A DNA stretch of 64,000 nt from Mayamaea pseudoterrestris. Taxonomy: Eukaryota. The first letter of the stretch is position 1, and every line of letters starts with the position of its first letter. The DNA lies in the NCBI GenBank assembly GCA_027923505.1, contig BROI01000008.1, positions 992,001 through 1,056,000 on the forward strand, written 5' to 3'. Of the stretch, positions 2,280 through 45,300 are shown one piece after another. The notes under the pieces were generated by a model. That model ran no database searches and had not been told where the DNA came from. It saw only the letters and a list, made by a program, of their open reading frames with translations. The translations under genes and the position numbers were made by a program.

Positions 2280-3625
2280 TTATGGCTTGATTCATCAAAT
2301 ATTAACTTGGTCAGTCATCAATGTCATCATTGGCAAAAGGCAAATGGTAACAGTTCTATAATATGGACTTGTTGCATTAAATAAGGACTCCTTGAGCTTG
2401 GTAGGGTTGTAGACCTTTTTAAGGACTCGCTCGTCAACTTTAAAGTCATGAGTCAAGTGCAAGTGGTTTGCCTGAAGCAAACTTTCATTGACAATTGCTT
2501 CTCATTAAACGGAGATAGTGAGGATGTTGGCAACAAGCGGTATATCCAGAAACATGTCGCGTTGAAAGATGACAGTGCCGGGAGAGAGGTTGTCAAGAGC
2601 TCCACTTGATGCAACTCACGTTGTGTGCATTGCTGTCATGAGGCATTGCTTGATTATATTGTCAGCTTCCATAACATCTTTGGGGAGGATGGGCAGGTAC
2701 TAGCGTATGAAGCACATTCCCAATGACAAGATGGCAGCGCTCGCAGATGCTATTAGCAGTGGGCGTCTTGGCCGAAGCGGCTTGCCATTCAATCCCGTTG
2801 TATTCAAGGATGGTTCCAAATGCGCCTTTAAACTATTTGCCTTGATCCGCAACAAGTCGCATTGGTCAAAGATAACGAGAGAGCCAGTTGTCATCAAAGA
2901 GACGTCCGATATGGTACACCGACTTGTCCTGGTAGCAAACAATTTTGACAAGGTTAGTAGCTGGGTCAATCATTGTCAATGCTCTGAAATATCAGTCAAT
3001 GCCATTCACGGATACTTTCCATGGTCCCATGTGATCAATGTGGACCTCATACCAAGGCGCAACGCGCACGTCTCACACTGGCAGCTCTCCATATTGATGG
3101 CTGCCTCCTTTATTGCATTGGCAGGTATCGCAAGCTCCAACAAGATGCTCAACTAGCTGTTGAGCTTAGGAAGGTAAAAGTGGTGCTTGATGCTTGCCGT
3201 GAGGCAAGTCATACCAGTGTGGGCACTGACAAGTGGTGCTAAAGAATCAAACAATCTAAAATCTAAGAATCCAACGATCTAGAATCTCAATGGGGATGTA
3301 GATTTGCCATCACACAATCTAGGATCTCAATGGGGATGCAGATTCGCCAGCGTGCATCTGCTTGGAATACAACAATCTGAACGTCTCCAAGTTGTTTGTA
3401 TTGTATGTTTGTCGCTTCTTGATTTTGGACTGTGGCCATTAGCGCTGCATCTTCTTGTTGATACTCGGCAATGGTTGAATATGACAGGGGATATCTCCCT
3501 TGCTCATCAAACTCTGGATGAAGGAGCAGGCATTCTGCTAGCTCTGGTTTGTCCCATAGGAGACAGTAAGCTTCATTATGCTGGGTCACATCAAGCCATG
3601 TTAACACCCAAATTGCAGAAGTACG
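2280..3625 (-). mobile_element. Decayed Ty3/gypsy LTR-retrotransposon pol relic (integrase region)
   Basis: Minus-strand translation through stops gives PLSYSTIAEYQQED...RICIP (pre-HHCC region), PWYEVHIDHMGPW...ALTMIDPATNL, WLSRYL*PMRLVADQGK*FKG...TPTANSICERCH (rve core) and SPGTVIFQRDMFLD...QVNI**IKP. Confidence 0.85.
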
Positions 3626-6600
3626 GTGCAACTTCTCACCAGTCTCAGCCAGCAGCTGCCATGCCTTTCAAATGCCCATACCTTGACCCATGTGTACGCC
3701 CAAATCAAGCCAGATTGGTGCCAGCATCCATATTCAAAATGCGCAACAAGATAAGCTGACTGGCTGGTGCCTTGGTGGACTGCAATGTGATTGGTGATAA
3801 CTGGTCACCAGTCTCAGCCATTGTGCTCCCATGCCTTTCAAATGCCCATTGCTTGAGCCATGTGTATGCCCAAATCAAGCCAGAATACGCTAACATCCTC
3901 ATTTTCAGGTGCGCTACAAGAAAAGATGACTGGCTGGTGTCTCAGTGGAATGCAATGTGATGGTAATAACTTGTCACCAGTCTCAGCCAGCAGCTGCCAT
4001 GCCTTTCAAATGCCCATACCTTGAGCCATGTGTATGCCCAAATCAAGCCAGAATGGTAATGAAACCCTTATTTGCCATCATCACTATTCAGTCTATGCTA
4101 CAAGATGGTATGCCTGGTGGGCGCCCTTTTACTCTGCAATGTGATTGGTGACAAGGTGTCACCAGTCTCAGCCAGCAGATGCCTTGACATTCAATTGCCC
4201 ATCAAACATGCCAGGTATACACCCAAATCACACCAGAATTGGCGCCAACATCATTATTCAGTCTGCGCTACAAGATGGTATGCCTGGTGGGTGCCCTTGT
4301 AGACTGCAATTGGACTGGTGAGAACTTCCCACCAGTCTCAGCCCACAGATGCCCTGACATTCAATTGCTTCTAAAACATGCCATGTATGCACCCAAATCA
4401 TGCCAGAATGGTGCCAACCTAATTATTCAGTCTGCGCTAAAAAGTGGTATGCCTGGTGGGTGCCCTAGTAGACTGCAATGCAATTGGTGACAAGTTGTCA
4501 CCAGGTTTAGCCCGCATATGCCTTGCCATTCAATTGCTTCTAAAACATGCCAGGTATGCACCCAAATCACATCAGAATGGTGCCAACATCATTACTCAGG
4601 CTGCGCTACAAGATGGTAAGCTTGGCTTGTGTCTCAGGGGATGGCAATGTATTTGGTGACAACTTGTCACCAGTCTCAGCCCGCAGATGCCATGACATTC
4701 AAACACACCTACAGCAGGCCCTGTAGGTGCCCATATTACACCAGAATGGTGCCAACATCATTATTCAGGCTGCGCTACAAGATGGTAAGCTTGGCTGGTG
4801 TCTCAGGGGATGGCAATGTATTTGGTGACAACTTGTCACCAGTCTCAGCCCGCAGATGCCATGACATTCAGACACTCCTACAACAGGCCCTGTAGGAGCC
4901 AAAGATACACCAGAATGGTGCCAACATCATTACTCAGGCTGTGCTACAAGATGGTAGGTTTGGCTGGTGTCTCAGGAGATGGCGATGTATTTGGTGACAA
5001 CTTGTCACCAGTCTCAGCCCGCAGATGCCATGACATTCAGACACACCTACAGCAGGCCCTGTAGGTGCCCAAATTACACCAGAATGGTGCCAACATCATT
5101 ATTTAGGCTGCGCTACAAGATGGTAGGCTTGGCTGGTGTCTCAGGGGATGGCAATGTATTTGGCGACAACTTGTCACCAGTCTCAGCCCGCAGATGCCAT
5201 GACATTCAGACACTCCTACAGCAGGCCCTGTAGGTGCCCAAATTACACCAGAATGGTGCCGACATCATTAATCCGGCTGCGCTACAAGATGGTAGGCTTG
5301 GCTGGTGTCTCAGGGGATGGCAATGTATTTGGTGACAACTTGTCACCAGTCTCAGCCCGCAGATGCCATGACATTCAGACACTCCTACAGCAGGCCCTGT
5401 AGGTGCCTATATTACACCAGAATGGTGACAACATTATTATTCAGGCTGCGCTACAAGATGGTAGGCTTGGCTGGTGTCTCAGGGGATGGCAATGTATTTG
5501 GTGACAACTTGTCACCAGTCTCAGCCCGCAGATGCCATGACATTCAGACACACCTACAGCGGGCCCTGTAGGTGCCCAAATTACACCAGAATGGTGCCAA
5601 CATCATTATTCAGGCTGCGATACAAGATGGTAGGCTTGGCTGGTGTCTCAGGGGATGGCAATGTATTTGGCGACAACTTGTCACCAGTCTCAGCCCGCAG
5701 ATGCCATGACATTCAGACACTCCTACAGCAGGCCCTGTAGGTGCCCAAATTACACCAGAATGGTGCCAACATCATTAATCCGGCTGCGCTACAAGATGGT
5801 AGGCTTGGCTGGTGTCTCAGGGGATGGCAATGTATTTGGTGACAACTTGTCACCAGTCTCAGCCCGCAGATGCCATGACATTCAGACACATCTACAGCAG
5901 GCCCTGTAGGTGCCCATATTACACCAGAATGGTGCCAACATCATTATTCAGGCTGCGCTACAAGATGGTAGGCTCGGCTGGTGTCTCAGGGGATGGCAAT
6001 GTATTTGGTGACAACTCGTCACCAGTCTCAGCCCGCAGATGCCATGACATTCAGACACACCTACAGCAGGCCCTGTAGATGCCCAACTTACACCAGAATG
6101 GTGCCACCATCATTTTGGAGGCTGAGCTACAAGATGGTAGGCTTGGCTGGTGTCTCAGGGGATGGCAATGTATTTGGTGACGACTTGTCACCAGTCTCAG
6201 TCGCAGATGCCATGACATTCAAACACACCTACAGCAGGCCCTGTAGGTGCCCATATTACACCAGAATGGTGCCAACATCATTTTTCAGGCTGCGATACAA
6301 GATGGTAGGCTTGGCTGGTGTCTCAGGGGATGGCAATGTATTTGGTGACAACTTGTCACCAGTCTCAGCCCGCAGATGCCATGACATTCAGACACTCCTA
6401 CAGCAGGCCCTGTAGGTGCCTATATTACACCAGAATGGTGCCAACATCATTATTCAGGCTGAGCTACAAGATGGTAGGCTTGGCTGGTGTCTCAGGGGAT
6501 GGCAATGTATTTGGTGACAACTTGTCACCAGTCTCAGCCCGCAGATGCCATGACATTCAGACACTCCTACAGCAGGCCCTGTAGGTGCCTATATTACACC

Positions 6601-9600
6601 AGAATGGTGCCAACATAATTATTTTGGCTGCTCTACAAGATGGTAGGCTTGGCTGGTGTCTCAGGGGATGGCAATGTATTTGGTGACAACTTGTCACCAG
6701 TCTCAGCCCGCAGATGTCATAACATTCAGACACACCTACAGCAGGCCCTGTAGGTGCCCATATTACACCAGACTGGTGCCAACATCATTATTCAGGCTGC
6801 GCTCAAGATGGTAGGCTTGGCTGGTGTCTCAGGGGATGGCAATGTATTTGGTGACAACTTGCCACCAGTCTCAGCCTTCAGATGCCATGACATTCAGACA
6901 CTCCTACAGCTGGCCCTGTAGGAGCCCAAAATACACTGAAATGGTGCCGCCATCATTTTTCAGGCTGCGCTTCAAGATGGTAGGCTTGGCTGGTGTCTCA
7001 GGGGATGGCAATGTATTTGGTGACAACTTGTCACCAGTCTCAGCCCGCAGATGCCATGACATTCAGACACACCTACAGCAGGCCCTGTAGGTGCCCAAAT
7101 TACACCAGACTGGTGCCAACATCATTTTTCTGGCTGCGCTACAAGATGGTAGGCTTGGCTGGTGTCACAGGGGATGGCAATGTATTTGGTGACAACTTGT
7201 CACCAGTCTCAGCCCGCAGATGCCATGACATTCAGATACACCTACAGCAGGCCCTGTAGTTACCCAAATTACATAAGAATGGTGCCAACATCATTATTCA
7301 GGCTGCGATACAAGATGGTAGGCTTGGCTGGTGTCTCAGGGGATGGCAATGTATTTGGTGACAACTTGTCACCAGTCTCAGCCCGCAGATGCCATGACAT
7401 TCAGACACTCCTACAGCTGGCCCTGTAGGTGCCCAAATTACACCAGACTGGTGCCGCCATCATTTTTCAGGCTGCGCTACAAGATGGTAAGCTTGGCTGG
7501 TGTCTCAGGGGATGGCAATGTATTTGGTGACAACTTGTCACCAGTCTCAGCCCGCAGATGCCATGACATTCAGACACTCCTACAGCAGGCCCTGTAGGTG
7601 CCCAAATTACACCAGAATGGTGCCACCATCATTTTTCAGGCTGCGCTACAAGATGGTAGGTTTGGCTGGTGTCTCAGGGGATGGCAATGTATTTGGTGAC
7701 AACTTGTCACCAGTCTCAGCCCGCAGATGCCATGACATTCAAACACACCTACAGCAGGCCCTGTAGGTGCCCAAATTACACCAGAATGGTGCCAACATCA
7801 TTTTTCAGGCTGAGCTACAAGATGGTAGGCTTGGCTGGTGTCTCAGGTGATGGCAATGTATTTGGTGACAACTTGTCACCAGTCTCAGCCCGCAAATGCC
7901 ATGACATTCAGACACTCCTACAGCAGGCCCTGTAGGTGCGCAAATTACACCAGAATGGTGCCAACATCATTATTCAGGCTGCGCTACAAGATGGTAGGCT
8001 TGGCTGGTGTCTCAGGGGATGGCAATGTATTTGGTGACAACTTGTCACCAGTCTCAGCCCGCAGATGCCATGACATTCAAACACACCTACAGCAGGCCCT
8101 GTAGGTGCCCAAATTACACCAGAATGGTGCCAACATCATTTTTCAGGCTGAGCTACAAGATGGTAGGCTTGGCTGGTGTCTCAGGTGATGGCAATGTATT
8201 TGGTGACAACTTGTCACCAGTCTCAGCCCGCAGATGCCATGACATTCAGACACTCCTACAGCAGGCCCTGTAGGAGCCCAAAATACACCAGAATGGTGCC
8301 AACATCATTTTTCAGGCTGCGCTACAAGATGGTAGGCTTGGCTGGTGTCTCAGGGGATGGCAATGTATTTGGTGACAACATGTCACCAGTCTCAGCCCGC
8401 AGATGCCATGACATTCAGACACACCTACAGCAGGCCCTGTAGGTACCCATATTACACCAGACTGGTGCCAACATCATTTTGCAGGCCGCGCTCAAGATGG
8501 TAGGCTTGGCTGGTGTCTCAGGGGATGGCAATGTATTTGGTGACAACTTGTCACCAGTCTCAGCCCGCAGATGCCATGACATTCCGACACTCCTACAGCA
8601 GGCCCTGTAGGTGCCCATATTACACCAGAATGGTGCCAACATCATTATTCAATCTGCGCTACAAGATGGTAGGCTTGGCTGGTGTCTCAGGGAATGGCAA
8701 TGGATTTGGTGACAACTTGTCACCAGTCTCAGCCCGCAGATGCCATGACATTCAGACACTCCTACAGCAGGCCCTGTAGGTGCCCAAATTACACCAGAAT
8801 GGTGCCAACATCATTATTCAGGCTGCGCTACAAGATGGTAGGCTTGGCTGGTGTCTCAGGGGATGGCAATGTATTTGGTGACAACTTGTCACCAGTCTCA
8901 GCCCGCAGATGCCATGACATTCAAACACACCTACAGCAGGCCCTGTAGGTGCCCAAATTACATAAGAATGGTGCCAACATCATTTTTAGGCTGCGCTACA
9001 AGATGGTAGGCTTGGCTGGTGTCTCAGGGGATGGCAATGTATTTGGTGACAACTTGTCACCAGTCTCAGCCTGCAGATGCCATGACATTCAAACACACCT
9101 ACAGCAGGCCCTGTAGGTGCCCAAATTACACCAGACTGGTGCCAACATCATTTTTCAGGCTGCGCTACAAGATGGTAGGCTTGGCTGGTGTCACAGGGGA
9201 TGGCAATGTATTTGGTGACAACTTGTCACCAGTCTCAGCCCGCAGATGCCATGACATTCAAACACACCTACAGCAGGCCCTGTAGGTGCCCAAATTACAT
9301 AAGAATGGTGCCAACATCCTTGATCTGGCTGCGCTACAAGATGGTAGGCTTGGCTGGTGTCTCAGGGGATGGCAATGTATTTGGTGACAACTTGTCACCA
9401 GTCTCAGCCTGCAGATGTCATGACATTCAAACACACCTACAGCAGGCCCTGTAGGTGCCCAAATTACACCAGACTGGTGCCAACATCATTTTTCAGGCTG
9501 CGCTACAAGATGGTAGGCTTGGCTGGTGTCACAGGGGATGGCAATGTATTTGGTGACAACTTGTCACCAGTCTCAGCCCGCAGATGCCATGACATTCAGA

Positions 9601-12600
9601 CTCACCTACAGCAGGCCCTGTAGGTGCCCAAATTACACCAGAATGGTGCCAACATCAATATTCAGGCTGTGCTACAAGATGGAAGGCTTGGCTGGTGTCT
9701 CAGGGAATGGCAATGTATTTGGTGACAACTTGTCACCAGTCTCAGCCCGCAGATGCCATGACATTCAAACACACCTACAGCAGGCCCTGTAGGTGCCCAA
9801 ATTACACCAGAATGGTGCCAACATCAATATTCAGGCTGTGCTACAAGATGGAAGGCTTGGCTGGTGTCTCAGGGAATGGCAATGTAATAAGTGACAACTT
9901 GTCACCAGTCTCAGCCCGCAGATGCCATGACATTCAAACACACCTACAGCAGGCCCTGTAGGTGCCCAAAATACACCAGACTGGTGCCAACATCATTATT
10001 CAATCTGCGCTACAAGATGGTAGGCTTGGCTGGTGTCTCAGGGAATGGCAATGTATTTGGTGACAACTTGTCACCAGTCTCAGCCCGCAGATGCCATGAC
10101 ATTCAGACACTCCTACAGCAGGCCCTGTAGGTGCCCAAAATACACCAGAAGGGTGCCAACATCATTAATAATGCTGCGCTACAAGATGGTAGGCTTGGCT
10201 GGTGTCTCAGGGGATGGCAATGTATTTGGTGACATCTTGTCACCAGTCTCAGCCCGCAGATGCCATGACATTCAGACACTCCTACAGCAGGCCCTGTAGG
10301 TGCCCAAATTACACCCGAATGGTGCCAACATCCTTGATCTGGCTGCGCTACAAGATGGTAGGCTTGGCTGGTGTCTCAGGGGATGGCAATGTATTTGGTG
10401 ACAACTTGTCACCAGTCTCAGCCTGCAGATGTCATGACATTCAAACACACCTACAGCAGGCCCTGTAGGTGCCCAAATTACACCAGACTGGTGCCAACAT
10501 CATTTTTCAGGCTGCGCTACAAGATGGTAGGCTTGGCTGGTGTCACAGGGGATGGCAATGTATTTGGTGACAACTTGTCACCAGTCTCAGCCCGCAGATG
10601 CCATGACATTCAGACTCACCTACAGCAGGCCCTGTAGGTGCCCAAATTACACCAGAATGGTGCCAACATCAATATTCAGGCTGCGCTACAAGATGGAAGG
10701 CTTGGCTGGTGTCTCAGGGAATGGCAATGTAATAAGTGACAACTTGTCACCAGTCTCAGCCCGCAGATGCCATGACATTCAAACACACCTACAGCAGGCC
10801 CTGTAGGTGCCCAAAATACACCAGACTGGTGCCAACATCATTTTTCAGGCTGCGCTACAAGATGGTAGGCTTGGCTGGTGTCTCAGGGGATGGCAATGTA
10901 TTTGGTGACAACTTGTCACCAATCTCAGCCCGCAGATGCCATGACATTCCGACACTCCTACAGCAGGCCCTGTAGGTGCCCAAATTACACCAGGATGGTG
11001 CCAACATCATTATTCAATCTGCGCTACAAGATGGTAGGCTTGGCTGGTGTCTCAGGGAATGGCAATGTATTTGGTGACAACTTGTCACCAGTCTCAGCCC
11101 GCAGATGCCATGACATTCAGACACTCCTACAGCAGGCCCTGTAGGTGCCCAAAATACACCAGAAGGGTGCCAACATCATTAATAATGCTGCGCTACAAGA
11201 TGGTAGGCTTGGCTGGTGTCTCAGGGGATGGCAATGTATTTGGTGACATCTTGTCACCAGTCTCAGCCCGCAGATGCCATGACATTCAGACACTCCTACA
11301 GCAGGCCCTGTAGGTGCCCAAATTACACCCGAATGGTGCCAACATCATTATTCAGGCTGCGCTACAAGATGGTAGGCTTGGCTGGTGTCTCAGGGAATGG
11401 CAATGTATTTGGTGACAACTTGTCACCAGTCTCAGCCCGCAGATGCCATGACATTCAGACACTCCTACAGCAGGCCCTGTAGGAGCCCAAAATACACCCG
11501 AATAGTGCCAACATCATTATTCAGGCTGCGCTACAAGATGGTAGGCTTGGCTGGTGTCTCAGGGGATGGCAATGTATTTGGCGACAACTTGTCACCACTC
11601 TCAGGACCCAGATGCCATGACACACCTTACAGCAGGCCCTGTATGTACCCATATTACACCAGAATGGTGCCAACATCATTTTTCAGGCTGCGCTACAAGA
11701 TGGTAAGCTTGGCTGGTGTCTCAGGGGATGGCAATGTATTTGGTGACAACTTGTCACCAGTCTTAGCCCGCAGATGCCATGACATTCAGACACACCTACA
11801 GCAGGCCCTGTAGATGCCCAAATTACACCAGACTGGTGCCAACATCCTTGATCTGGCTGCGCTACAAGATGGTAAGCTTGGCTGGTGTCTCAGGGGATGG
11901 CAATGTATTTTGTGACAACTTGTCACCAGTCTCAGCCCGCAGATGCCATGACATTCAAACACTCCTACAGCAGGCCCTGTAGGTGCCTATATTACACCAG
12001 AATAGTGCCAACATCATTAATCCGGCTGCGCTACAAGATGGTAGGCTTGGCTGGTGTCTCAGGGAATGGCAATGTATTTGGTGACAACTTGTCACCAGTC
12101 TCAGCCCGCAGATGCCATGACATTCAGACACTCCTACAGCAGGCCCTGTAGATGCCCAAAATACACCAGAATGGTGCCACCACCATTTTTGAGGCTGCGC
12201 TACAAGATGGTAAGCTTGGCTGGTGTCTCAGGGGATGGCAATGTATTTGGTGACAACTTGTCACCAGTCTCAGCCCGCAGGTGCCATGACATTCAGACAC
12301 TCCTACAGCAGGCCCTGTAGGTGCCCAAATTACACCAGACTGGTGCCAACATCCTTGATCTGGCTGCGCTACAAGATGGTAGGCTTGGCTGGTGTCTCAG
12401 GGGATGGCAATGTATTTGGTGACAACTTGTCACCAGTCTCAGCCCGCAGATGCCATGACATTCAGACACTCCTACAGCAGGCCCTGTAGATGCCCAAATT
12501 ACACCAGAATGGTGCCACCACCATTTTTGTGGCTGCGCTACAAGATGGTAAGCTTGGCTGGTGTCTCAGGGGATGGCAATGTATTTGGTGACAACTTGTC

Positions 12601-15600
12601 ACCAGTCTCAACCCGCAGATGCCATGACATTCAGACACTCCTACAACAGGCCCTGTAGGAGCCCAAAATACACCAGACTGGTGCCAACATCATTGATCCG
12701 GCTGCGCTACAAGATGGTAGGCTTGGCGGGTGTCTCAGGGGATGGCAATGTATTTGGTGACAACTTGTCACCAGTCTCAGCCCGCAGATGCCATGACATT
12801 CAGACACTCCTACAGCAGGCCCTGCCCTGTAGGAGCCCAAAATACACCAGAATGGTGCCAACATCAATAATCAGGCTGCAATACAAGATGGTAGGCTTGG
12901 CTGGTGTCTCAGGGGATGGCAATGTATTTGGTGACAACTTGTCACCAGTCTCAGCCCACAGATGCCATGACATTCAGACACACCTACAGCAGGCCCTGTA
13001 GGTGCCCAAATTACACCAAATAGGTGCCAACATCTTTTTTCAGGCTGCGCTACAGGATGGTAGGCTTGGCTGGTGTCTCAGGGGATGGCAATGTATTTGG
13101 TGACAACTTGTCACCAGTCTCAGCCCGCAGATGCCATGACATTCAGACACACCTACAGCAGGCCCTGTAGGTACCCATATTACACCAGACTGGTGCCAAC
13201 ATCATTATTCAGGCTGCACTTAAGATGGTAGATTGGCTGGTGTCTCAGGGGATGGCAATGTCTTTGGTGACAACTTGTCACCAGTCTCAGCCCGCAGATG
13301 CCATGACATTCAGACACTCCTACAGCCGGCCCTGTAGGAGCCCAAAATACACCAGAATGGTGCCACCATCATTTTTCAGGCTGCGCTACAAGATGGTAGG
13401 CTTGGCTGGTGTCTCAGGGGATGGCAATGTATTTGGTGACAACTTGTCACCAGTCTCAGCCCGCAGATGCCATGACATTCAGACACTCCTACAGCAGGCC
13501 CTGTAGGTGCCTATATTACACCAGAATGGTGCCAACATAATTATTTTGGCTGCTCTACAAGATGGTAGGCTTGGCTGGTGTCTCAGGGGATGGCAATGTA
13601 TTTGGTGACAACTTGTCACCAGTCTCAGCCCGCAGATGCCATGACATTCAGACACTCCTACAGCAGGCCCTGTAGGAGCCCAAAATACCCAGAATGGTGC
13701 CAACAACAGTATTTAGGCTGCGCTATAAGATGGTAGACTTGGCTGGTGTCTCAGGGGATGGCAATGTATTTGGTGACAACTTGTCACCAGTCTCAGCCCG
13801 CAGATGCCATGGCATTCAAACACACCTACAGCAGGCCCTGTAGGTGCCCAAAATACACCAGAATGGTGCCAACATCATTATTCAGGCTGCACTTAAGATG
13901 GTAGACTTGGCTGGTGTCTCAGGGGATGGCAATGTATTTGGTGACAACTTGTCACCAGTCTCAGCCCGCAGATGCCATGACATTCAAACACACCTACAGC
14001 AGGCCCTGTAGGTGCCCAAATTACACCAAATAGGTGCCAACATCTTTTTTCAGGCTGCGCTATAAGATGGTAGGCTTGGCTGGTGTCTCAGGGGATGGCA
14101 ATGTATTTGGTGACAACTTGTCACCAGTCTCAGCCCGCAGATGCCATGACATTCAAACACACCTACAGCAGGCCCTGTAGGTGCCCATATTACACCAGAA
14201 TGGTGCCAACAACATTTTTCAGGCTGCGCTACAAGATGGTAGGCTTGGCTGGTGTCACAGGGGATGGCAATGTATTTGGTGACAACTTGTCACCAGTCTC
14301 AGCCCGCAGATGCCATGACATTCAGACACACCTACAGCAGGCCCTGTAGGTGCCCAAATTACACCAGAATGGTGCCAACATCATTATTCAGGCTGCGCTA
14401 CAAGATGGTAGGCTTGGCTGGTGTCTCAGGGGATGGCAATGTATTTGGTGACAACTCGTCACCAGTCTCAGCCCGCAGATGCCATGACATTCAGACACAC
14501 CTACAGCAGGCCCTGTAGATGCCCAACTTACACCAGAATGGTGCCAACATCATTTTGGAGGCTGAGCTACAAGATGGTAGGCTTGGCTGGTGTCTCAGGG
14601 GATGGCAATGTATTTGGTGACAACTTGTCACCAGTCTCAGCCCGCAGATGCCATGACATTCAGACACTCCTACAGCAGGCCCTGTAGGTGCCCAAAATAC
14701 ACCAGAATGGTGCCAACATCATTATTCAGGCTGCGCTACAAGACGGTAGGCTTGGCTGGTGTCTCAGGGGATGGCAATGTATTTGGTGGCAACTTGTCAC
14801 CAGTCTCAGCCCGCAGATGCCATGACATTCAGACACTCCTACAGCAGGCCCTGTAGGAGCCCAAAATACACCAGAATGGTGCCACCATCATTTTTCAGGC
14901 TGCGCTACAAGATGGTAGGTTTGGCTGGTGTCTCAGGGTATGGCAATGAATTTGGTGACAACTTGTCACCAGTCTCAGCCCGCCGATGCCATGACATTCA
15001 ACCACACCTACAGCAGGCCCTGTAGTGGCCCATATTACACCAGAATGGTGCCAACATCATTATTCAGGCTGTGCTAAAAGATGGTAGACATGGCTGGTGT
15101 CTCAGGGGATGGCAATATAGGTGCCCATATTACACTAGAATGGTGCCAACATCTTTGATAAGGCTGCGCTACAAGATGGTAGGTTTGGCTGGTGTCTCAG
15201 GGGATGGCAATGTATTTGGTGACAACTTGTCACCAGTCTCAGCCCGCAGGTGCCATGACATTCAGACACACCTACAGCAGGCCCTGTAGGTGCCCAAAAT
15301 ACACCAGAATGGTGCCTACATCATTGTTGAGGCTGCGTTAGAAGATGGTAGGCTTGGCTGGTGTCTCAGGGGATGGCAATGTATTTGGTGACAACTTGTC
15401 ACCAGTCTCAGCCTGCAGATGCCATGACATTCAAACACACCTACAGCAGGCCCTGTAGGTGTCCAAAATACACCAGAATGGGTGCCAACATCATTATTCA
15501 GGTTGCGCTACAAGATGGTAGGTTTGGCTGGTGTCTCAGGGGATGGCAATGTATTTGGTGACAACTTGTCACCAGTCTCAGCCCACAGATGCGAAGACAT

Positions 15601-15962
15601 TCAATTGCCCATATATCTTGCCATATAAGCACCTAAATCATACCAGAATCAACATCATTACTCAGTCTGCGCTACAAGATGTTATGCCTGTTGGGTGCCC
15701 TAGTAGACTGCAATGTGATTGGTAGCAAGTTGTCACCAGTCTCAGCCTGCAGATGCCGTGACTTTCAATTGCCCATATAACATGTCATGTATACATATAA
15801 ATCACACCAGAATGGTGCCAACATCATTATTCAGTCTGCGCTACAAGAAAAGATGACTGGCTGGTGTCTCAGTGGACTGCATTGTGATTGGTGATAACTG
15901 TCACCAGTCTCAGCCAGCACCAGCCATGCCTTTCAAAGGCCCATACCTTGAGTCATGTGTAT
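3625..15962. repeat. Satellite array, 169-bp monomer, about 73 copies (homogeneous core ~4600-15600)
   Basis: Direct 169-bp periodicity (ORF-track starts 4629, 4798, 4967...). Core consensus GTGTCTCAGGGGATGGCAATGTATTTGGTGACAACTTGTCACCAGTCTCAGCCCGCAGATGCCATGACATTCAGACACWCCTACAGCAGGCCCTGTAGGTGCCCAAATTACACCAGAATGGTGCCAACATCATTATTCAGGCTGCGCTACAAGATGGTAGGCTTGGCTG. Confidence 0.98.
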
Positions 15963-16091
15963 AGTGAGTCTACCGATTAGTGCACCGCACATCTAGACAG
16001 CTACTCGTATATAAGATGCTTGATTGTGGTACATGTTTGCGTTATGGTTAGTTAAAGTTAAGGTGGACTTAAACCAATCTGCAACCTGCAA

Positions 16092-16523
16092 TTAAAGAAT
16101 TGATCCAGAGTTGGAAGCAATACGAGGCCAAAGTTCTGCGCATTCCTTGGCGACTGGTCCAGAAACTGCCGAACCCTTCATCTCTCCCTTATTGTTAACA
16201 ATCACACCAGCCGAGTCCTCAAAATGAATAAATACACCCTCCTTTCTGCGAAAAGCCTTGCGTTGTCGGACAATAATTCCAGGAACAACCTTCTTTCGAA
16301 GCTCTGGCTTTCCCTTTTTGACACTGCACATGACCATGTCACCCGACGACGCCTTTGGAAGACGATTCAACCGACCACCAATGTTGCAAACGGCGATAAT
16401 GTGAAGATTCTTGGCGCCAGAGTTGTCAGCACAGTTGACAACGGCAGCCGTCGGCAGACCAGCCGTCACCTTGTGCTTGATACCGGCGGCAAGAGCGCGT
16501 CCTCGTTTTCCTTTCTCACCCAT
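16092..16523 (-). CDS. RPL23: 60S ribosomal protein L23 (uL14)
   Basis: [23 protein letters not shown] and [17 protein letters not shown]; intronless. Confidence 0.97.
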
Positions 16524-17005
16524 AATATATTAATAGAATTAAATATTCCTGAGATGAATATGAAAGCGAATAAGCAATGAGTACTGTGCGTCCCAAGCAG
16601 AAAATAACGTGCGAAATACAGTGGTCGACGACAATCCATCGCGCAAGACATCGCGCAAATGACTTTGATCCACGCTCCGGCGCTACAATGGAGCTCCTTC
16701 GTAAGCTTTAGCAGCAGTAACAACAACGACAACAAGGCATGAAACGGCATACCTGTAGACTCAAAAGGTCAAGGCAATGGTGCAATGCAAGCTGCAAGCT
16801 GATTGTCGGAGCCAGTCGAGTAACGCGGTAAGCGGTAATCGAGGAGCACAGTCGCTCACTTTCGTCGTTAGAACTCGATCCTTAACTTACATGATCGATC
16901 CACGTGGAGGATCTTTTGCCAACCAGCATCGAACGCTGTTCATCACTCGCAGCGACTCATCGCGGAGGAACAAGCAACCAACCGGCCAAAAGACTCCTTT
17001 CAACC

Positions 17006-18766
17006 ATGAAGTTATCAAACGCAGCAGTCCTCGCAGCTCTATCGGTGTCCCCAGTGGCGGGAAAAGTTTACTTCAAGGAACAGTTCAACGACGAAGTATG
17101 TGTCGATTGACGACTTGCGGAAGATTCGTTGTGCTGGAAGGTCATTGTTCGTCATAGTCGTGGTTCACTCACACTTTGATTTCTATCATGGCAGGCTTGG
17201 AACAAGCGATGGACCATTCCATCCAAATGGAAGCCAAAGGCGGAAATGGGAAAGTGGGAGCACACTGCAGGAAAGTGGTACGGTGACAAGGACGACAAGG
17301 GCATTCAAACATCGGAAGATGCACGGTTCTACGGCATTTCGGCGCCATTGGACGAGGTTTACACGTCTGACGCGAGCAAGCCACTTGTCATTCAGTATAC
17401 AGTTAAACATGAGCAGAAACTAGACTGTGGTGGCGCTTATATCAAGTTGCTTCCAGGTGGAAAGAAGTTTGATGCCGACAAATTCTCGGGCGACACGCCA
17501 TATTCCGTCATGTTTGGCCCAGACGTTTGTGGAACGTCCAACAAGAAGACTCACTGCATTCTTCACTACGATAAGAAGGACGAAAATTTGTTGATCAAGA
17601 AGGAAGTGAGCTGCGAGACAGACAAGGTTTCTCATTTATACACTCTCGTTATTTCGCCCGACAATACCGTCGAGATTTTCATTGACGACAAGAGCGTGAG
17701 AAAGGGTGCATTAGCGGACGAGTTTGATTTCCTTGAGCCGAAAGAAATTAAAGATCCTGACGGTAAGCACACGGATTCGCCGGCGAAGGTGGCATTTACG
17801 TAATGATGACCTTTCGCGACTCCTTTCGTTGCATTGCATTGGAAACTTCAAATCTAAACCTTTCGTTCCTTCTATTTCCTCCATCGACCTTAAAGCCAAG
17901 AAGCCTGAAGACTGGGTTGATGAAAAGATGATTGATGATCCATCTGACGTGAAGCCGGCTGGGTATGATGACATTCCAAAAGGTAAGGCATGCAAGATTG
18001 AGGCCTCGTCGCATAGCTGTTCTAAGGCAGGGTGTGGATTTGCGGTGTGTCTTGCGAATCATTGATGCGGAGTTGGCTTTTACAGCGCCTCGATAGCGTG
18101 AGACCTTATTGATCTGTTCGGCAGCTAACAATAGTTTCGACTCGCGCAGAAATTCCTGATGAGACTGCAGTGAAGCCGTCAGACTGGGACGACGAGGACG
18201 ATGGCGAATGGGAGGCTCCACTTATACCCAACAAAGATTACAAGGGCGAGTGGAAGGCCAAGAAGATCGAAAATCCACTATACAAGGGACCTTGGGTGCA
18301 CCCTATGGTGCCGAATCCGAAGTACCAGGAAGATACCGACCTTTTCAAGGTGTGCAAGGATGGTTGCACGCACGTAGGCTTTGAACTCTGGCAGGTTAAG
18401 ACAGGAACGCTGTTTGACGACATTATTATCACTGATAGCTTGGAGGAGGCGCAAGCATTTGCAAAGGAGACCTTTTTCAAGAAGAAGGAAGGCGAGAAGA
18501 AGATGTTGGACGAGCAAGAAGCGGAGGACAAGAAGAAGCAAGACGAGGAAATGGTACGTACTGGAGTCAGCATGTGTTTTTATGCACTACTCGGTTGGTT
18601 TGAAAAGTCGTTGGACTTAATGGTTATACTTTGATCGCTGCAGGAAAAGATGAAGGCAGAAGGTGGAATGGATGACATGGATATGGGCATGGGCGGTATG
18701 GATATGCCTGATGATGACGCCATGATGGGCGGCATGGGCATGGATGGTTTTGAAGACGAGTTCTAA
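17006..18766 (+). CDS. CRT: Calreticulin (5 exons: 17006-17095, 17195-17762, 17896-17982, 18150-18553, 18644-18766)
   Basis: Signal peptide, KHEQKLDCGGAYIK, VMFGPDVCG, P-domain repeats KPEDW/KPSDWD and GFELWQVK. GT-AG introns join in frame; the protein ends EDEF. Confidence 0.95.
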
Positions 18767-42163: not shown

Positions 42164-42374
42164 TGTTGGATCTAGAATATATCTTGCGCGCCCTTGAAGC
42201 GACACTAATGATTAAGCAGAACAGAGTCAATAAAACCACTTTACTTATTTTCTCCAAGAAGTGATCGTCCTCGATCCACTCCTTCGGTTGCCGCTTACCG
42301 CGCTTACTTAAATGTGACCGTCTTCGTGACGTCACCGCTGCCGCTTCGGTTTGGGTTCTCATCCATGCTCAACA
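42164..42374 (-). repeat. 3' LTR
   Basis: TGTTGG...TCAACA, direct repeat of 47179-47389. Confidence 0.95.
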
Positions 42375-45300
42375 CACTCCTTTGGGCCGAGTAGTACTTA
42401 CTGCTCGAGGCCAGATTCATAACCAGGTTGCGGAGCTTGCCAAACTGGGCTCCCTGCAATGGTTTCGTGAAGAAATCCGCGACCATGTCTCCGGTCGGAC
42501 AATGCTCAATGTTGACTTCACCAGCTGCCACGCGATCTTTCACAAAGAAGTACCGAACATTCATGTGTCGCGTGCGCTTTGTACTTGAGCTTCTGCCATT
42601 CTTTTCCAACAGCATTGAACTCATATTGTCTTGATACAATTTCGTGTCTTTGACCCCGAAACCTTGCGCCTTCAGAAAATATCCTGTCCACAGCAACTGC
42701 GGTAGCACATCATGAACTCCCACAACTTCGCTCTCCGTCGAGCTTCTTGTTACCAACTTCTGTTTAGCCGACGTACTGTACACTGATCCTTGGCCAAGTG
42801 TCATTGTTCCACCAGTGTGACCCTTCATGTCTGGGTGCACCGCGTACGACGCATCCACCCACCACTGGACTATCCCGGACTGGTCCGCCTTCAGCGTCAA
42901 CACCATGTCCACGCTTCCGCGTAAATATTTAATCACTCTTGCAGCCTTCTTATAGTCGTCTTCGTCAGGCTGCTGCAGCCTCGTGCTCAAGAAAGAAATC
43001 GCTGTGCGAATATCCGGTCGCGCTCGCTGACTCAGATACAGACACTGCATCACAATCGTCACAAAAATCTGCTTCTTCGCTTCGCTCAACATGACAGGAT
43101 TTTCCGATATCTGAAACAAGTGACTGGCTGCCGGAGTAGCTGCCGTTCCATCCATGTCGTCTGGCGCATGATGCAGGATGTTCTTCACATAGTCAACCAT
43201 GTTGATTGCTACTTCTCCAGGCTTAGTATAGTCCAATACCATGCCGAGGTAGTCGTGCACTTTTCCGCGTGACTTATTCATTGGAGTCTCCTTGCCAAAC
43301 TCCTCATCCATCTGCGCGATGAACTCATCCACTACGCTCACGTCGACGTGCGAAATCTTCAAATCGTCCACGTGCCATCCCACGGTGATTTGCTTCCCAT
43401 TGACAATCTTGTTGCACACACACGGATCGTACGGGTTCTTCTCGAAGCCCCACTCAAGCAATTTTGCGGACAACTTCTCCCAGAATAGTCGCGCTGCTCG
43501 AAGCGTACCATAAAGCGCCATGAGTAATTCAACATACATGACTTTCTCGCCATTCTCCATTGTGACGCAAGGCTCGTACATCTCGCGATCAATTTCCAAC
43601 AGTAGCTCCACCATCTTCCCAGTGAAACGAACGTGCACCAACTCATCCATTTCCGCTTGCATGAAAGCACCCGGTACATCAACCACAGCAACCTCGCGCC
43701 CTTCCATAGCGTCAATGATAGCTGTCAGAAAGATGGCCTCTGTCGCTATCGTTGGAGATGCTGCGTCTTCCTTTGCAGTGTATGCTCGTTGCTTGCGTCC
43801 ATCCGCGCATCCGCGTCCCTTCACAGTCCCGCATCTCTTGCGCTTGAGAAACATCAAATACGCCAGAGCGTCCTTGCGCTGCTGCGGAGTCAGAGTGCAT
43901 TGGGGGACTGCCTTCATGACGTGCCTGTCGTGTAGCTGCTGCATTTCCTTGCGCACTGCCTCCACTCCAGCATCGCCAAAAGCCTTTAAACCTTGTCGCA
44001 TATTCATCTGTGCCGTGACGAGTGGCTCCGACACTTCCTCTGCAGCGTCGAGCGTGAACAAATGAGCGAACGAGCGAGGTTTGCGCGCACGCAGGCCATA
44101 CCGACCAGTGCGTGGGCCATAGCGCGCATCGAAATCCTCTTCGTCTGCAGCAGCTGGCACTCCTTCAATTTCGCCTTCATCGGGCACTCCTTCAATTTCG
44201 CCATCATCCACGGCTGGCGCGTCGTCAAGTTCGCCGTCAATGGCCTCACCATCCTCGTCGTTCGGCACTCCTTCGATTGCGCCGTCAGCACCATCGTCGT
44301 CGTCGTCGTCGTCATCGGTCGCATTCACTCCTTCGCTTCCGCCGGCAGAGTCGTCGTCACCGCGAGAAGCGTCGTCATCATAATCAGAGTCATCATCATC
44401 CTCGGCGTCATCTTCGTGCCACATGACTGGCTCAGCAGCCTCCGCAACACGGTGGCGGTCCATGAACACGATGCCCGGATTGGCCTTCTGTTGACGAGCG
44501 AGACGATGCACGCGCTCAATGACATCATCAGGCATGGGCAAAGGCGTAGCGTGCCCACGATTCAGAACTTTGCCCGAAGACAAACTGAGGAAATAAAACC
44601 CACCCTGCACATTACCAGTCGGGCGCAGAGCCAGCGCACCGATCGTGCGCGCCTGCATGTCATTGCTGTGCGACTCATGCGTTTGCACATACTGACCAAA
44701 TTCATACTTGCAATGCCGATTAAAGTCAACTGTCTGACCAGTCACAATAGTGCGTGGACTGAGATCCTTCGAAATGCCACGCTCGTTCGGAAACGCATTC
44801 AACCAAAACACGGCAGACTTCGTCATTTCGATAACCAAGCGTGCCGGCACGTGCTTAAATGGCAACGTGTTGTATGTCGCGCGCACCCGTTCTTTCACGA
44901 CACGGATAAAACGTTCAATTTCGCCAACGTGTTCATCCTCAGATGTCGCATTGAGCGCCACTCCGAGATCAGCCAACGCGCCAAGCATTGGAGCGAACTC
45001 CCCATCCATCAGAGCCGCGACGACACGGAACCCACCGCGTGCGTAAATCTTCAACACAGACTCGATTGCCTTCAACATAACCGGAAGCGTACGGTTTTGA
45101 ATCACCTCAACCGTAGCAAAACGAATGCTGCGGGAGAACGTCACCAACATAGGGACTTTGTTGATATACATGATGTCAGCACAAAGAGTAACGTCTCGAT
45201 AGCGACTCATGATAGCCGGTGGAAGCTGCTCAACAATCGCAGGCTTCACCAGATGCGACGCGCGACGCGTCGTCTTTCCTTTTAACGAGCCAACATCTGG

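What the first reader, a model, noticed from the sequence alone, without database searches (positions are those of the whole stretch)
4629..15600. Three dyad symmetries per monomer
Seen: TGGTGACAA-C-TTGTCACCA (9-bp arms, nearly invariant), CACCTACAG-CAGGCC-CTGTAGGTG (9-bp arms) and CACCA-GAA-TGGTG, whose common variant CACCAG-A-CTGGTG extends it. ATGGCA/TGCCAT also brackets the first dyad. Inference: these could be cruciform (non-B DNA) sites, binding sites for a dimeric protein or a structured repeat RNA.
Basis: partly seen in the sequence, partly recalled or inferred. Interest (0 to 1): 0.7.

Follow-up and report, generated by a model that had tools for sequence, protein, structure and literature searches.

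The report
Diatom 169-bp satellite with short palindromes
A 12-kb block of a 169-base repeat in a diatom chromosome really does carry short palindromes in every unit, but they behave like ordinary features of very abundant, probably methylated satellite DNA, and only one of them (a 19-base box) is old and conserved enough to be a candidate functional site.

Summary
The window is nuclear DNA of a raphid pennate diatom. Positions about 3603-15965 are a non-coding, head-to-tail array of a 169-bp satellite. All three dyads are present. Two dyads with 9-bp arms in one monomer is beyond chance (0 of 5000 dinucleotide shuffles). The 5-bp dyad, the ATGGCA/TGCCAT bracket and overall dyad density are not. 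Arm positions are no better conserved than the rest of the monomer (0.031 vs 0.039 mismatches per site, p=0.58).

The dyads differ in history:
- D1, the 19-bp palindrome, lies in the family's conserved domain and survives in diverged edge monomers.
- D2 lies in the hypervariable domain, is absent from older subtypes, and is perfect in only 32 of 63 core units.
- D3 is at chance level.

Whole-monomer RNA folds are unremarkable and no Rfam family matches. The array is strongly CpG-depleted (0.19 vs 1.09) and the family is extremely abundant.

Best reading: ordinary satellite heterochromatin, with dyads made or sharpened by arm-to-arm copying and spread by array homogenisation. D1 remains a candidate protein or non-B-DNA box. 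The scan already reported palindromic boxes in another satellite of this genome (e1-7561519).

The parts
3603..15965 (+). Whole 169-bp satellite array, head-to-tail, non-coding
   Evidence: TRF rows. All 82 blastn HSPs of the consensus fall inside 3550-16000. No ORF of 150 aa or more lies between 3760 and 17245. The sequence edges were read.
4634..15535 (+). Homogenised core (subtype A): 63 regular monomers plus one 264-bp unit
   Evidence: Monomer alignment. Mean identity between monomers is 0.934-0.941 at every lag from 1 to 15, so there is no higher-order repeat.
3603..4633 (+). Left edge: diverged older subtypes (C, then B), 68-80% identical to the core consensus
15536..15965 (+). Right edge: the same diverged subtypes in mirror order (B, then C)
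7525..7543 (.). D1 example: TGGTGACAA-C-TTGTCACCA (monomer positions 21-39), the family's conserved palindromic box
   Evidence: 51 exact copies. 9/9 pairs in 49 of 63 core monomers. DNA hairpin -7.0 kcal/mol. Edge-monomer divergence 0.079 vs 0.23 for the rest.
5044..5067 (.). D2 example: CACCTACAG-CAGGCC-CTGTAGGTG (monomer positions 73-96), a dyad specific to this subtype in the hypervariable domain
   Evidence: 24 exact copies, plus 4 exact copies of the T74/A95 form, plus 18 with one broken pair. 9/9 pairs in 32 of 63. Edge monomers keep only 2-6 of 9 pairs and diverge by 0.508.
5077..5089 (.). D3 example: CACCA-GAA-TGGTG (monomer positions 106-118), a short dyad at chance level
   Evidence: 36 exact copies. 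-2.8 kcal/mol. The count of dyads with arms of 5 or more equals the shuffle expectation.
6766..6778 (.). D3 variant CACCAG-A-CTGGTG (A113 changed to C)
   Evidence: 13 of 63 monomers. Hairpin energy is unchanged at -2.8 kcal/mol.
7512..7564 (.). ATGGCA (7512-7517) and TGCCAT (7559-7564) bracketing D1, with an axis offset of 4 bp
   Evidence: 59 copies of ATGGCA-N41-TGCCAT. About chance level once the D1 and D2 6-mers are set aside (plus my arithmetic).

Best explanation
This is a block of ordinary satellite DNA. The unit is a nucleosome-sized 169-bp repeat of a raphid pennate diatom. It is very abundant genome-wide and so depleted of CpG that it has probably long been cytosine-methylated heterochromatin.

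The 'three dyads per monomer' are properties of one monomer sequence, copied about 65 times by unequal exchange and gene conversion. They do not form one system.
- D1 (19 bp) is an old quasi-palindromic box inside the family's conserved domain.
- D2 is a young palindrome that exists only in the subtype expanded in this array. It sits in the family's most variable segment.
- D3 and the ATGGCA/TGCCAT bracket are what chance gives in a CA/TG-rich sequence.

I infer, but have not shown, that the long perfect arms arose or were sharpened by arm-to-arm copying: replication template switching that 'corrects' quasi-palindromes. Amplification of the monomer variant carrying them then fixed them. Any function, such as a protein site or non-B DNA, would rest on D1 alone.
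For: Identity as a satellite:
- 169-bp period, 65 copies, 93% matches.
- No long ORF.
- No copy elsewhere in the window.

Host: histone-fold, calreticulin, SET and copia RT genes lie nearby. The SSB homologues are named from Amphora, Cylindrotheca, Epithemia, Seminavis and Fistulifera.

Abundance: in run X1 the summed word depth on satellite bins is 4.1-6.5 million against 162-164 on the adjacent unique DNA. This is rough and is not a copy number.

Methylation signature: CpG observed/expected is 0.19 in the array against 1.09 in the flank. TG is 1.61 and CA is 1.86, against about 1.2 in the flank.

Dyads are not a general enrichment:
- Density equals the shuffles.
- The count of dyads with arms of 5 or more equals the shuffles.
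- Arms are no more conserved than the rest.
- The whole-monomer DNA fold z-score is only -1.61.

Different histories of the dyads:
- In the 7 diverged edge monomers, divergence from the core consensus is 0.079 for D1 arms, 0.508 for D2 arms, 0.229 for D3 arms and 0.23 for the rest.
- D2 differs at 15 of 28 positions between subtypes A and B.
- Family-wide reads show position 74 is mostly C: 77% at 15439 and 24% at 15270. C pairs with nothing at position 95.

The apparent compensation is linkage. A95 occurs only with T74 (9 of 9). It also occurs only with A103 (9 of 9), which lies outside any dyad, so this is one monomer haplotype.

None of the 14 core monomers with a broken D1 is compensated.

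The mechanism is documented elsewhere. Template switching creates and perfects hairpins and quasi-palindromes: PMC8794818, PMC5453318, PMC3820800 and PMC8604942. I saw only the search listing and the starts of the abstracts.
Against: - Two 9-bp-arm dyads in 169 bp were never reached by shuffles (0 of 5000). Something beyond composition made them.
- D1 keeps its axis in old subtypes while the complementary positions change. Six of 8 complete edge monomers still have arms of 6 bp or more. One (4296-4464) carries a C:G to G:C double change and arms extended outward (GACTGGTG...CACCAGTC).
- The formal pair count finds 6 pairs with changes on both sides against 2.6 in shuffles (2 of 500 shuffles reach it) and 93.5% of cells paired. 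The tool warns that related rows can do this without any structure. Several of these cells also come from edge monomers whose D2 homology is doubtful.
- The inner 19 nt of D2 (positions 75-93) is the single best-conserved 19-nt window of the core (9 mismatches).
- No direct evidence for template switching was obtained. Both D2 arms differ from subtype B, so a single switch does not explain D2.
Confidence: 0.6

Rival explanations
1. D1 is a recognition box for a dimeric, sequence-specific DNA-binding protein. It would work like the CENP-B box or the Meloidogyne 19-bp box. Two 9-bp half-sites sit one helical turn apart and place one protein dimer per 169-bp unit, helping to set heterochromatin or centromeric chromatin.
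For: - D1 is a perfect 19-bp palindrome with half-site centres 10 bp apart (read directly from the sequence).
- It is conserved across subtypes: 0.079 vs 0.23 divergence. The D1 window ranks 11th of 151 windows.
- In a type-B monomer whose local copy deviates, family-wide reads restore the palindrome: 99% at two arm positions. The unpaired centre base is free, with G>C at 43%.
- The Meloidogyne CenH3-associated repeats share a conserved 19-bp box with inverted segments and a fold energy of -5.4 kcal/mol (PMC8097292, passages read).
Against: - The conservation peak is not centred on the dyad axis. The best windows start at positions 28-31, that is the right arm plus GTCTCAGCC.
- The left arm carries 12 of the 16 core mismatches.
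- The neighbouring non-dyad blocks at positions 11-16 and 35-48 are as conserved or more so.
- D1-broken monomers were re-duplicated within the array.
- No protein or binding data exist.
Confidence: 0.15
2. The dyads are selected for non-B DNA. Short cruciforms or hairpins at D1 and D2 would mark the array for CenH3 deposition, as Kasinathan & Henikoff proposed for satellite centromeres. On this reading the array is centromeric or pericentromeric.
For: - D1 and D2 fold as stable DNA hairpins: -7.0 and -7.2 kcal/mol, with 0 and 4 of 200 shuffles as stable.
- Dyad density is 1.5 times that of the unique flank: 0.284 vs 0.17-0.20.
- The variable D2 segment holds some 5-bp dyad of different sequence in 5 of 7 edge monomers, as if symmetry rather than sequence mattered there.
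- The model and its criteria are in PMC5889037 (passages read).
Against: - Density is not above composition-preserving shuffles. That is the paper's own selection test.
- Five-bp dyads are expected at about 2.6 per monomer by chance.
- The diatom centromeres described so far are short, low-GC and non-satellite. The F. solaris preprint gives 36-42% GC and 1.4-2 kb, and summarises P. tricornutum likewise (passages read). This array is 50-51% GC.
- Earlier scan notes report several other satellite blocks on this and other contigs, so one array is not 'the' centromere.
- Nine-bp arms are marginal for extrusion (recalled, not tested).
Confidence: 0.12
3. D1 is a junction scar. The satellite would have arisen by tandem amplification of a small element with terminal inverted repeats (TTGTCACCA...TGGTGACAA). 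Each head-to-tail junction would then read as a palindrome.
For: The palindrome can be read as two abutting 9-bp termini around one base. MITE-to-satellite transitions are known in animals (recalled). The inverted self-alignment score of the monomer is high: 33 vs 20.7 +/- 5.0, with 7 of 300 shuffles reaching it.
Against: - There are no solo or dispersed copies in the 64-kb window (0 of 82 HSPs outside the array).
- The half-site 10-mer has only 2 matches outside the array, against about 6 expected for the whole window.
- A 1-bp spacer fits no common target-site duplication (recalled).
- No transposon library could be searched.
Confidence: 0.06
4. The repeat is transcribed and the dyads fold a functional structured or hairpin RNA.
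For: The minimum-free-energy folds contain the D1 and D2 stems and the ATGGCA/TGCCAT bracket.
Against: - RNA fold z-scores are -0.39 and -1.15.
- No Rfam match reached a gathering score. The single listed match was snoZ163 at E=0.67.
- Stems of 5-9 bp are too short for Dicer-type substrates (recalled).
- The only clear 'covariation' is one inherited haplotype.
- D2 is absent from most of the family.
Confidence: 0.03

Closest known systems
Satellite DNAs with short (<10-bp) dyad symmetries (Kasinathan & Henikoff 2018, PMC5889037)
   Same: A nucleosome-sized tandem repeat carrying perfect dyads with arms under 10 bp and short spacers. These are predicted to form stable hairpins. Dyad density is higher than in unique flanking DNA.
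   Different: The density is explained by dinucleotide composition. No centromere assignment exists. The host is a diatom, a group not covered by that survey as far as the passages I read show.
Conserved-box satellites: the Meloidogyne 19-bp box of CenH3-associated repeats (PMC8097292) and the mammalian CENP-B box
   Same: A 19-bp box with inverted halves, kept while the rest of the monomer diverges. Its hairpin energy is similar: -7.0 here against -5.4 kcal/mol there.
   Different: Conservation here is shown only among subtypes of one family in one array plus coarse read pile-ups. There is no CenH3 or binding evidence. The box is not GC-rich. The neighbouring non-dyad sequence is equally conserved.
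Quasi-palindrome correction and short template-switch mutations (PMC5453318, PMC8794818, PMC3820800, PMC8604942; listing and abstract starts only)
   Same: Substitutions are clustered in one 28-nt segment, and that segment ends as a perfect inverted repeat. There is one symmetric double change in D1.
   Different: No ancestral-state reconstruction or template-switch model was run. Both arms of D2 changed, so more than one event is needed.
Stramenopile satellites PpSat1 and PpSat2 of Phytophthora parasitica (PMC7290008)
   Same: Stramenopile tandem families with monomers of satellite size (PpSat2 has a mean monomer of 142 bp) and predicted secondary structure. Some arrays lie close to genes (passages read).
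   Different: The sequences are unrelated. Those authors report transcripts and cross-species homologues. Neither could be examined here.
Known diatom centromeres (P. tricornutum; F. solaris preprint 10.1101/2021.11.10.468027)
   Same: Only that both are candidate chromosome landmarks in diatoms.
   Different: Those centromeres are short, low-GC and free of highly repeated elements. This block is 12 kb of 50-51% GC satellite.

Membership tests
Satellite DNA | Long head-to-tail tandem array of a fixed-length monomer | tested here: met
   169-bp period, 65.0 copies, 93% matches. 56 of 70 box-to-box intervals are exactly 169 bp.
Satellite DNA | Non-coding | tested here: met
   No ORF of 150 aa or more lies between 3760 and 17245 under the standard code.
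Satellite DNA | High copy number in the genome | tested here: met
   Summed word depth is 4.1-6.5 million on the satellite against 162-164 on the unique flank in run X1. This is a rough measure. X1 may be the source sample of the window.
Satellite DNA | Concerted evolution: a homogenised core with older variants at the array edges | tested here: met
   Core monomers are about 94% identical at all lags. Edge monomers are 68-80% identical to the core consensus, and the same subtypes occur on both sides.
Dyad-enriched (non-B) centromeric satellites, Kasinathan & Henikoff 2018 | Dyad density above permuted or composition-matched sequence | tested here: not met
   Array 0.284 against 0.252 +/- 0.016 for per-monomer shuffles (maximum 0.296). 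Tiled consensus 0.272 against 0.26 +/- 0.12, reached by 438 of 1000 shuffles. Only the arm-length distribution is unusual (0 of 5000).
Dyad-enriched (non-B) centromeric satellites, Kasinathan & Henikoff 2018 | Location at the CenH3-bound centromere | not testable with these tools
   No ChIP data are available and no whole genome is held for this window.
Conserved-box satellites (CENP-B box, Meloidogyne 19-bp box) | Box conserved while the rest of the monomer diverges | tested here: inconclusive
   D1 arms diverge by 0.079 against 0.23 for the rest in the 7 edge monomers. However, the D1 window ranks only 11th of 151, and the flanking non-dyad blocks are as conserved.
Conserved-box satellites (CENP-B box, Meloidogyne 19-bp box) | A specific binding protein or CenH3 association | not testable with these tools
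   No binding or chromatin data are available.
Known diatom centromeres | Short, low-GC, non-repetitive DNA | tested here: not met
   GC is 0.50-0.51 across 4001-14000, and the region is a 12-kb tandem array. The criteria come from passages of the F. solaris preprint.
Structured RNA family | A match to a curated covariance model, or a fold more stable than shuffles with independent covariation | tested here: not met
   No Rfam match reached gathering score. Fold z-scores are -0.39 and -1.15. The covariation traces to one haplotype.
MITE/TIR-derived satellite | Dispersed single copies bounded by the inverted termini and target-site duplications | tested here: inconclusive
   None in this 64-kb window. 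The genome could not be searched.

The most novel reading that the evidence does not exclude
D1 would be the diatom counterpart of a CENP-B box or of the Meloidogyne 19-bp box. On this reading it is a symmetric 19-bp element, kept across subtypes of the genome's dominant satellite, that recruits a dimeric protein or extrudes a small cruciform once per nucleosome-sized unit. It would seed centromeric or heterochromatic chromatin. This diatom would then use satellite-based chromosome landmarks, unlike the low-GC, non-repetitive centromeres described for Phaeodactylum and Fistulifera.
Probability: 0.1. Interest if true: 0.7.

Novelty: new member of a known kind. Interest (0 to 1): 0.27.

Why it matters
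Satellite DNA is barely described in diatoms. My searches for 'diatom' with 'satDNA', and for 'diatom' with 'satellite DNA'/'satellite', 'centromere' and 'tandem repeat' or 'telomere-to-telomere', found no paper describing a diatom satellite family. These searches cover the held library only. A very abundant, CpG-depleted, nucleosome-sized repeat with a conserved palindromic box shows that some diatoms carry plant- or animal-style satellite heterochromatin next to ordinary genes. If D1 proved to be a bound or structured site, it would give a handle on how such chromatin, or a centromere, is specified in this group. As it stands, the finding is a well-characterised example of a known pattern.

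Tried and rejected
1. Relatives in metagenomes. Blastn of three tiled consensus monomers against all 121 matched only the palindrome itself, at most 34 nt. So no relatives were found, and no cross-species test was possible.

2. Expression. No RNA holder was listed by the look-up of sequencing runs. Nothing can be said about transcription.

3. Cross-species satellite sharing. Runs X6, X7 and X8 (three other organism labels, same study as X1) show satellite depth of thousands, with some bins far lower. They have almost no cover of the unique flank. The few flank pieces are about 150-210-nt records, identical to the window or nearly so (2 other letters in one), at depth 2-3. This fits trace carry-over of the X1 organism's DNA, so I did not use it as evidence of conservation.

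4. A CACCW/WGGTG motif array. The motif occurs 7 times per monomer against 2.0 expected (16 of 5000 shuffles reach it). However, the control 'count of the commonest strand-symmetric 5-mer' is reached by 782 of 5000. I rejected it as post hoc.

5. An internal duplication of the monomer. The best direct self-alignment scores 15 against 15.06 in shuffles, reached by 156 of 300. Rejected.

6. Higher-order repeat structure. Identity is flat across lags 1-15.

7. Whole-genome search. No genome is held for this window.

8. The scan's own index by sequence found no look-alike stretch.

9. The 74/95 'compensatory' pair as evidence for selection. I rejected it because A95 is equally linked to A103, which lies outside the dyad.

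Full report
**What the region is.** Tandem Repeats Finder reports a 169-bp period over 4136-15116 (65.0 copies, 93% matches, 0% indels). More diverged copies lie at 3636-4055 (period 170, 84% matches) and 15111-15937 (81% matches). Reading the edges puts the array at about 3603-15965.

Under the standard code, no ORF of 150 aa or more lies between 3760 and 17245. The flanks are gene-dense and eukaryotic: DTW, calreticulin, a histone-fold protein, SSB, SET, and a copia-type polyprotein with RVT_2 and zf-CCHC. The homologues of the SSB-domain protein that carry names come from raphid pennate diatoms (Amphora, Cylindrotheca, Epithemia, Seminavis, Fistulifera). The window's own protein sits on a contig of about 1.12 Mb. 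No whole genome is held for this window.

**The observation.** The 19-mer TGGTGACAACTTGTCACCA occurs 71 times with at most 3 mismatches. Of these, 51 are exact, and 56 of 70 intervals are exactly 169 bp. I cut monomers 20 nt upstream of this box and aligned them. On that numbering:
- D1 is positions 21-39.
- D2 (CACCTACAG-CAGGCC-CTGTAGGTG) is positions 73-96.
- D3 (CACCA-GAA-TGGTG) is positions 106-118.

Pairing in the 63 regular core monomers (the 264-nt unit at 14933 was left out) is as follows:

| Dyad | Fully paired |
|---|---|
| D1 | 49 of 63 |
| D2 | 32 of 63 |
| D3 | 50 of 63 |
| D3 variant CACCAG-A-CTGGTG | 13 of 63 |

ATGGCA-N41-TGCCAT occurs 59 times in 4629-15600. Its axis lies 4 bp from the D1 axis.

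**Is it more than chance?** The right unit of analysis is one monomer, because the ~65 copies are not independent. Against 5000 dinucleotide-preserving shuffles of the consensus:
- The number of dyads with arms of 5 or more and loop of 12 or less is 3 against a mean of 2.65; 2524 of 5000 shuffles reach it.
- A longest arm of 9 is reached by 70 of 5000.
- Two arms of 9 or more are reached by 0 of 5000.

I also used the density measure of Kasinathan & Henikoff (arms 5 or more, gap 20 or less; method passages read). Results:
- Array 0.284; unique flank 0.19 (chunks 0.17-0.20).
- Monomer-wise shuffles 0.252 +/- 0.016 (maximum 0.296).
- Tiled consensus 0.272 against tiled shuffles 0.26 +/- 0.12; 438 of 1000 reach it.

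So the CA/TG-rich composition explains the dyad density. Only the two long perfect arms are exceptional. Six-mer inverted pairs with a spacer under 60 number 12 against 4.4 expected (11 of 1000 shuffles reach it). By my arithmetic, 8 of the 12 lie inside D1 and D2. The remaining 4, which include ATGGCA/TGCCAT, are about what chance gives.

**Conservation within the core.** Mismatches per site per monomer are as follows:

| Positions | Mismatch rate |
|---|---|
| D1 arms | 0.014 |
| D2 arms | 0.049 |
| D3 arms | 0.029 |
| All arms | 0.031 |
| Rest of monomer | 0.039 |

The difference between all arms and the rest has Mann-Whitney p=0.58. Variation concentrates at positions 69, 74, 95, 101, 103, 113 and 122-145. 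The best-conserved 19-nt window of the core is 75-93, the inner part of D2. The next best start at 25-28.

**Apparent compensation.** Position 74 pairs with position 95. The counts are A:T 32, T:T 21, T:A 9 and A:A 0. This looks compensatory. However, A95 is also always accompanied by A103 (9 of 9), which lies outside any dyad. These nine monomers are one subtype scattered through the array. The association is therefore inheritance of one haplotype, at most one event. None of the 14 core monomers with a broken D1 has a matching change in the other arm.

The formal count on all 70 aligned monomers gives 93.5% paired cells. It finds 6 pairs with changes on both sides against 2.6 +/- 1.1 in shuffles (2 of 500 shuffles reach it). 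The tool warns that related rows exceed shuffles without any structure. Several of the double changes also come from edge monomers whose D2 homology is doubtful.

**Three dyads, three histories.** Both array edges carry older subtypes in mirror order: C outermost, then B. In the 7 diverged edge monomers, divergence from the core consensus is as follows:

| Positions | Divergence | Pairs kept |
|---|---|---|
| D1 arms | 0.079 | 7-9 of 9 |
| D2 arms | 0.508 | 2-6 of 9 |
| D3 arms | 0.229 | 1-5 of 5 |
| Rest of monomer | 0.23 | - |

D2 differs from subtype B at 15 of 28 positions. This makes it the most diverged segment of the monomer. D1 is kept, and six of 8 complete edge monomers still have arms of 6 bp or more. 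In one of them (4296-4464) pair 7-13 has changed from C:G to G:C, and the arms extend outward instead.

The conservation peak is not centred on the dyad axis, however. The best windows start at positions 28-31, that is the right arm plus GTCTCAGCC, and the D1 window ranks 11th of 151.

**Family-wide view.** All 8 sequencing runs found are kept as assembled contigs, and none is on record as RNA. I laid four of them on 15197-18200. In X1, which may be the source sample, the summed word depth is 4.1-6.5 million on most satellite bins against 162-164 on the adjacent unique DNA. That is very roughly 30,000-fold, and the tool warns it is not a copy number.

- At the type-B monomer whose D1 deviates locally (15720), 99% of the laid depth restores the two arm bases. 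The unpaired centre base is G>C in 43%.
- Among the 41 variant rows shown (49 more are not shown), none falls in the D1 arms of the other three monomers.
- Positions 69, 72, 74 and 84, in the D2 left arm and loop, are polymorphic. Position 74 is mostly C family-wide, which pairs with nothing at position 95.

So perfect D2 is a peculiarity of this array's subtype, while D1 is a family feature.

Runs of three other organism labels show the satellite at depths of thousands, with some bins far lower. They have almost no cover of the unique flank. The few flank pieces are about 150-210-nt records, identical to the window or nearly so (2 other letters in one), at depth 2-3. I read this as trace carry-over, not shared ancestry.

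**Structure and RNA.**
- As single-stranded DNA, D1 folds at -7.0 kcal/mol (0 of 200 shuffles as stable), D2 at -7.2 (4 of 200) and D3 at -2.8.
- The 'extended' D3 variant is also -2.8, because a 1-nt loop cannot close.
- Whole-monomer fold z-scores are -0.39 (RNA, + strand), -1.15 (RNA, - strand) and -1.61 (DNA).
- The permissive Rfam scan of 3500-16200 lists one match, snoZ163, at E=0.67 and below its gathering score.

**Chromatin signature.** CpG observed/expected is 0.19 in the array against 1.09 in 16001-64000. TG (1.61) and CA (1.86) are in excess. This is the footprint of long-term cytosine methylation and deamination. That diatoms methylate repeats in the CG context is recalled, not looked up. 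Array GC is 0.50-0.51.

**Interpretation.** The array is ordinary satellite heterochromatin. D3 and the bracket are chance. D2 is a young palindrome in a hypervariable segment, spread by amplification of one subtype.

D1 is an old quasi-palindromic box within the conserved domain. Its long perfect arms need an explanation beyond composition. The most economical one is arm-to-arm copying by replication template switching, which is documented to create and perfect hairpins (PMC8794818, PMC5453318, PMC3820800, PMC8604942; search listing and abstract starts only). I did not demonstrate it. Both D2 arms differ from subtype B, so more than one event would be required.

A functional reading remains open for D1 only. 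Two comparators apply:
- The conserved, dyad-forming 19-bp box of CenH3-associated repeats in Meloidogyne (PMC8097292, passages read).
- The non-B-DNA model of Kasinathan & Henikoff (PMC5889037).

Against a centromere role, the diatom centromeres described so far are short, low-GC and without highly repeated elements (F. solaris preprint, passages read). Earlier scan notes also report several other satellite blocks in this genome, one of them 21 kb beyond this window (not checked here).

**Relation to earlier scan notes.** Note e1-7561519 reported palindromic boxes about every 170 bases in another satellite block of this genome. It gave the same 'arms copy each other' reading and the same closest-known paper. 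I reuse that reading. The sequence look-up found no look-alike of the present monomer in the index, so it appears to be a different family. If several unrelated satellites of one genome each carry a palindromic box, a general cause is more likely than a sequence-specific protein. That cause could be mutational, or selection for symmetry as such. I could not test this.

**Novelty.** This is a new member of a known kind: satellite DNA with short dyads and a conserved box. My literature searches found no description of diatom satellite families, but they cover the held library only.

Noticed in passing
window 4629-15100 vs 16001-64000: Strong CpG depletion of the array (observed/expected 0.19 vs 1.09), with TG and CA in excess. 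This suggests long-standing cytosine methylation of the satellite right next to ordinary genes.
   Followed up: partly
window 3603-4633 and 15536-15965: The array is layered symmetrically. The same two older monomer subtypes (C outermost, then B) flank the homogenised core on both sides, as if the young subtype expanded inside an older array.
   Followed up: partly
Read laying loose end at window 15799 (run X8): A loose end joins telomere-type CCCTAA repeats directly to the satellite within the D2 loop and right arm. Somewhere, an array of this family therefore abuts a telomere, either as a subtelomeric array or by telomere healing inside the satellite.
   Followed up: no
window 15111-15125: A partial monomer joins position ~14 directly to position ~92. 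This deletes D1 and most of D2 and produces the 264-bp box-to-box interval. Letters resembling this junction also appear among the X1 joints (table 5c), which hints that the deleted form may itself be multi-copy; I did not check this.
   Followed up: no
window 4058-4073; about 12815-12830; about 11626; 15480; 15640: Indels cluster in or next to D2 and D3 rather than D1. They are a 16-bp insertion in the D3 right arm, a 5-bp duplication in the D2 loop, a 7-bp deletion at the D2 left arm, and a 1-bp insertion and a 5-bp deletion in D3. The numbers are too small to test.
   Followed up: no
loci L005, L007, L018, L020, L021, L023 and others: In many GC-rich metagenome contigs, the same 19-mer sits inside a longer palindrome (TTCAAC-19mer-GTTGA) with conserved flanks. 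It looks like a conserved prokaryotic site or gene segment, unrelated to the diatom satellite.
   Followed up: no
runs X6, X7, X8: Runs labelled as three other organisms from the same study hold this satellite at depths of thousands, but almost none of the unique flank. The simplest explanation is trace cross-sample carry-over made visible by the satellite's huge copy number.
   Followed up: partly
window 42304-47151 (- strand): A 1615-aa open reading frame carries zf-CCHC and RVT_2 domains, indicating a copia-type retrotransposon 26 kb from the array.
   Followed up: no
monomer positions 21-30 and 114-123 (e.g. window 7525-7534 and 7618-7627): TGGTGACAAC and TGGTGCCAAC form a 9-of-10 direct repeat linking the D1 left arm with the D3 right arm. 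It is not above shuffle expectation.
   Followed up: yes
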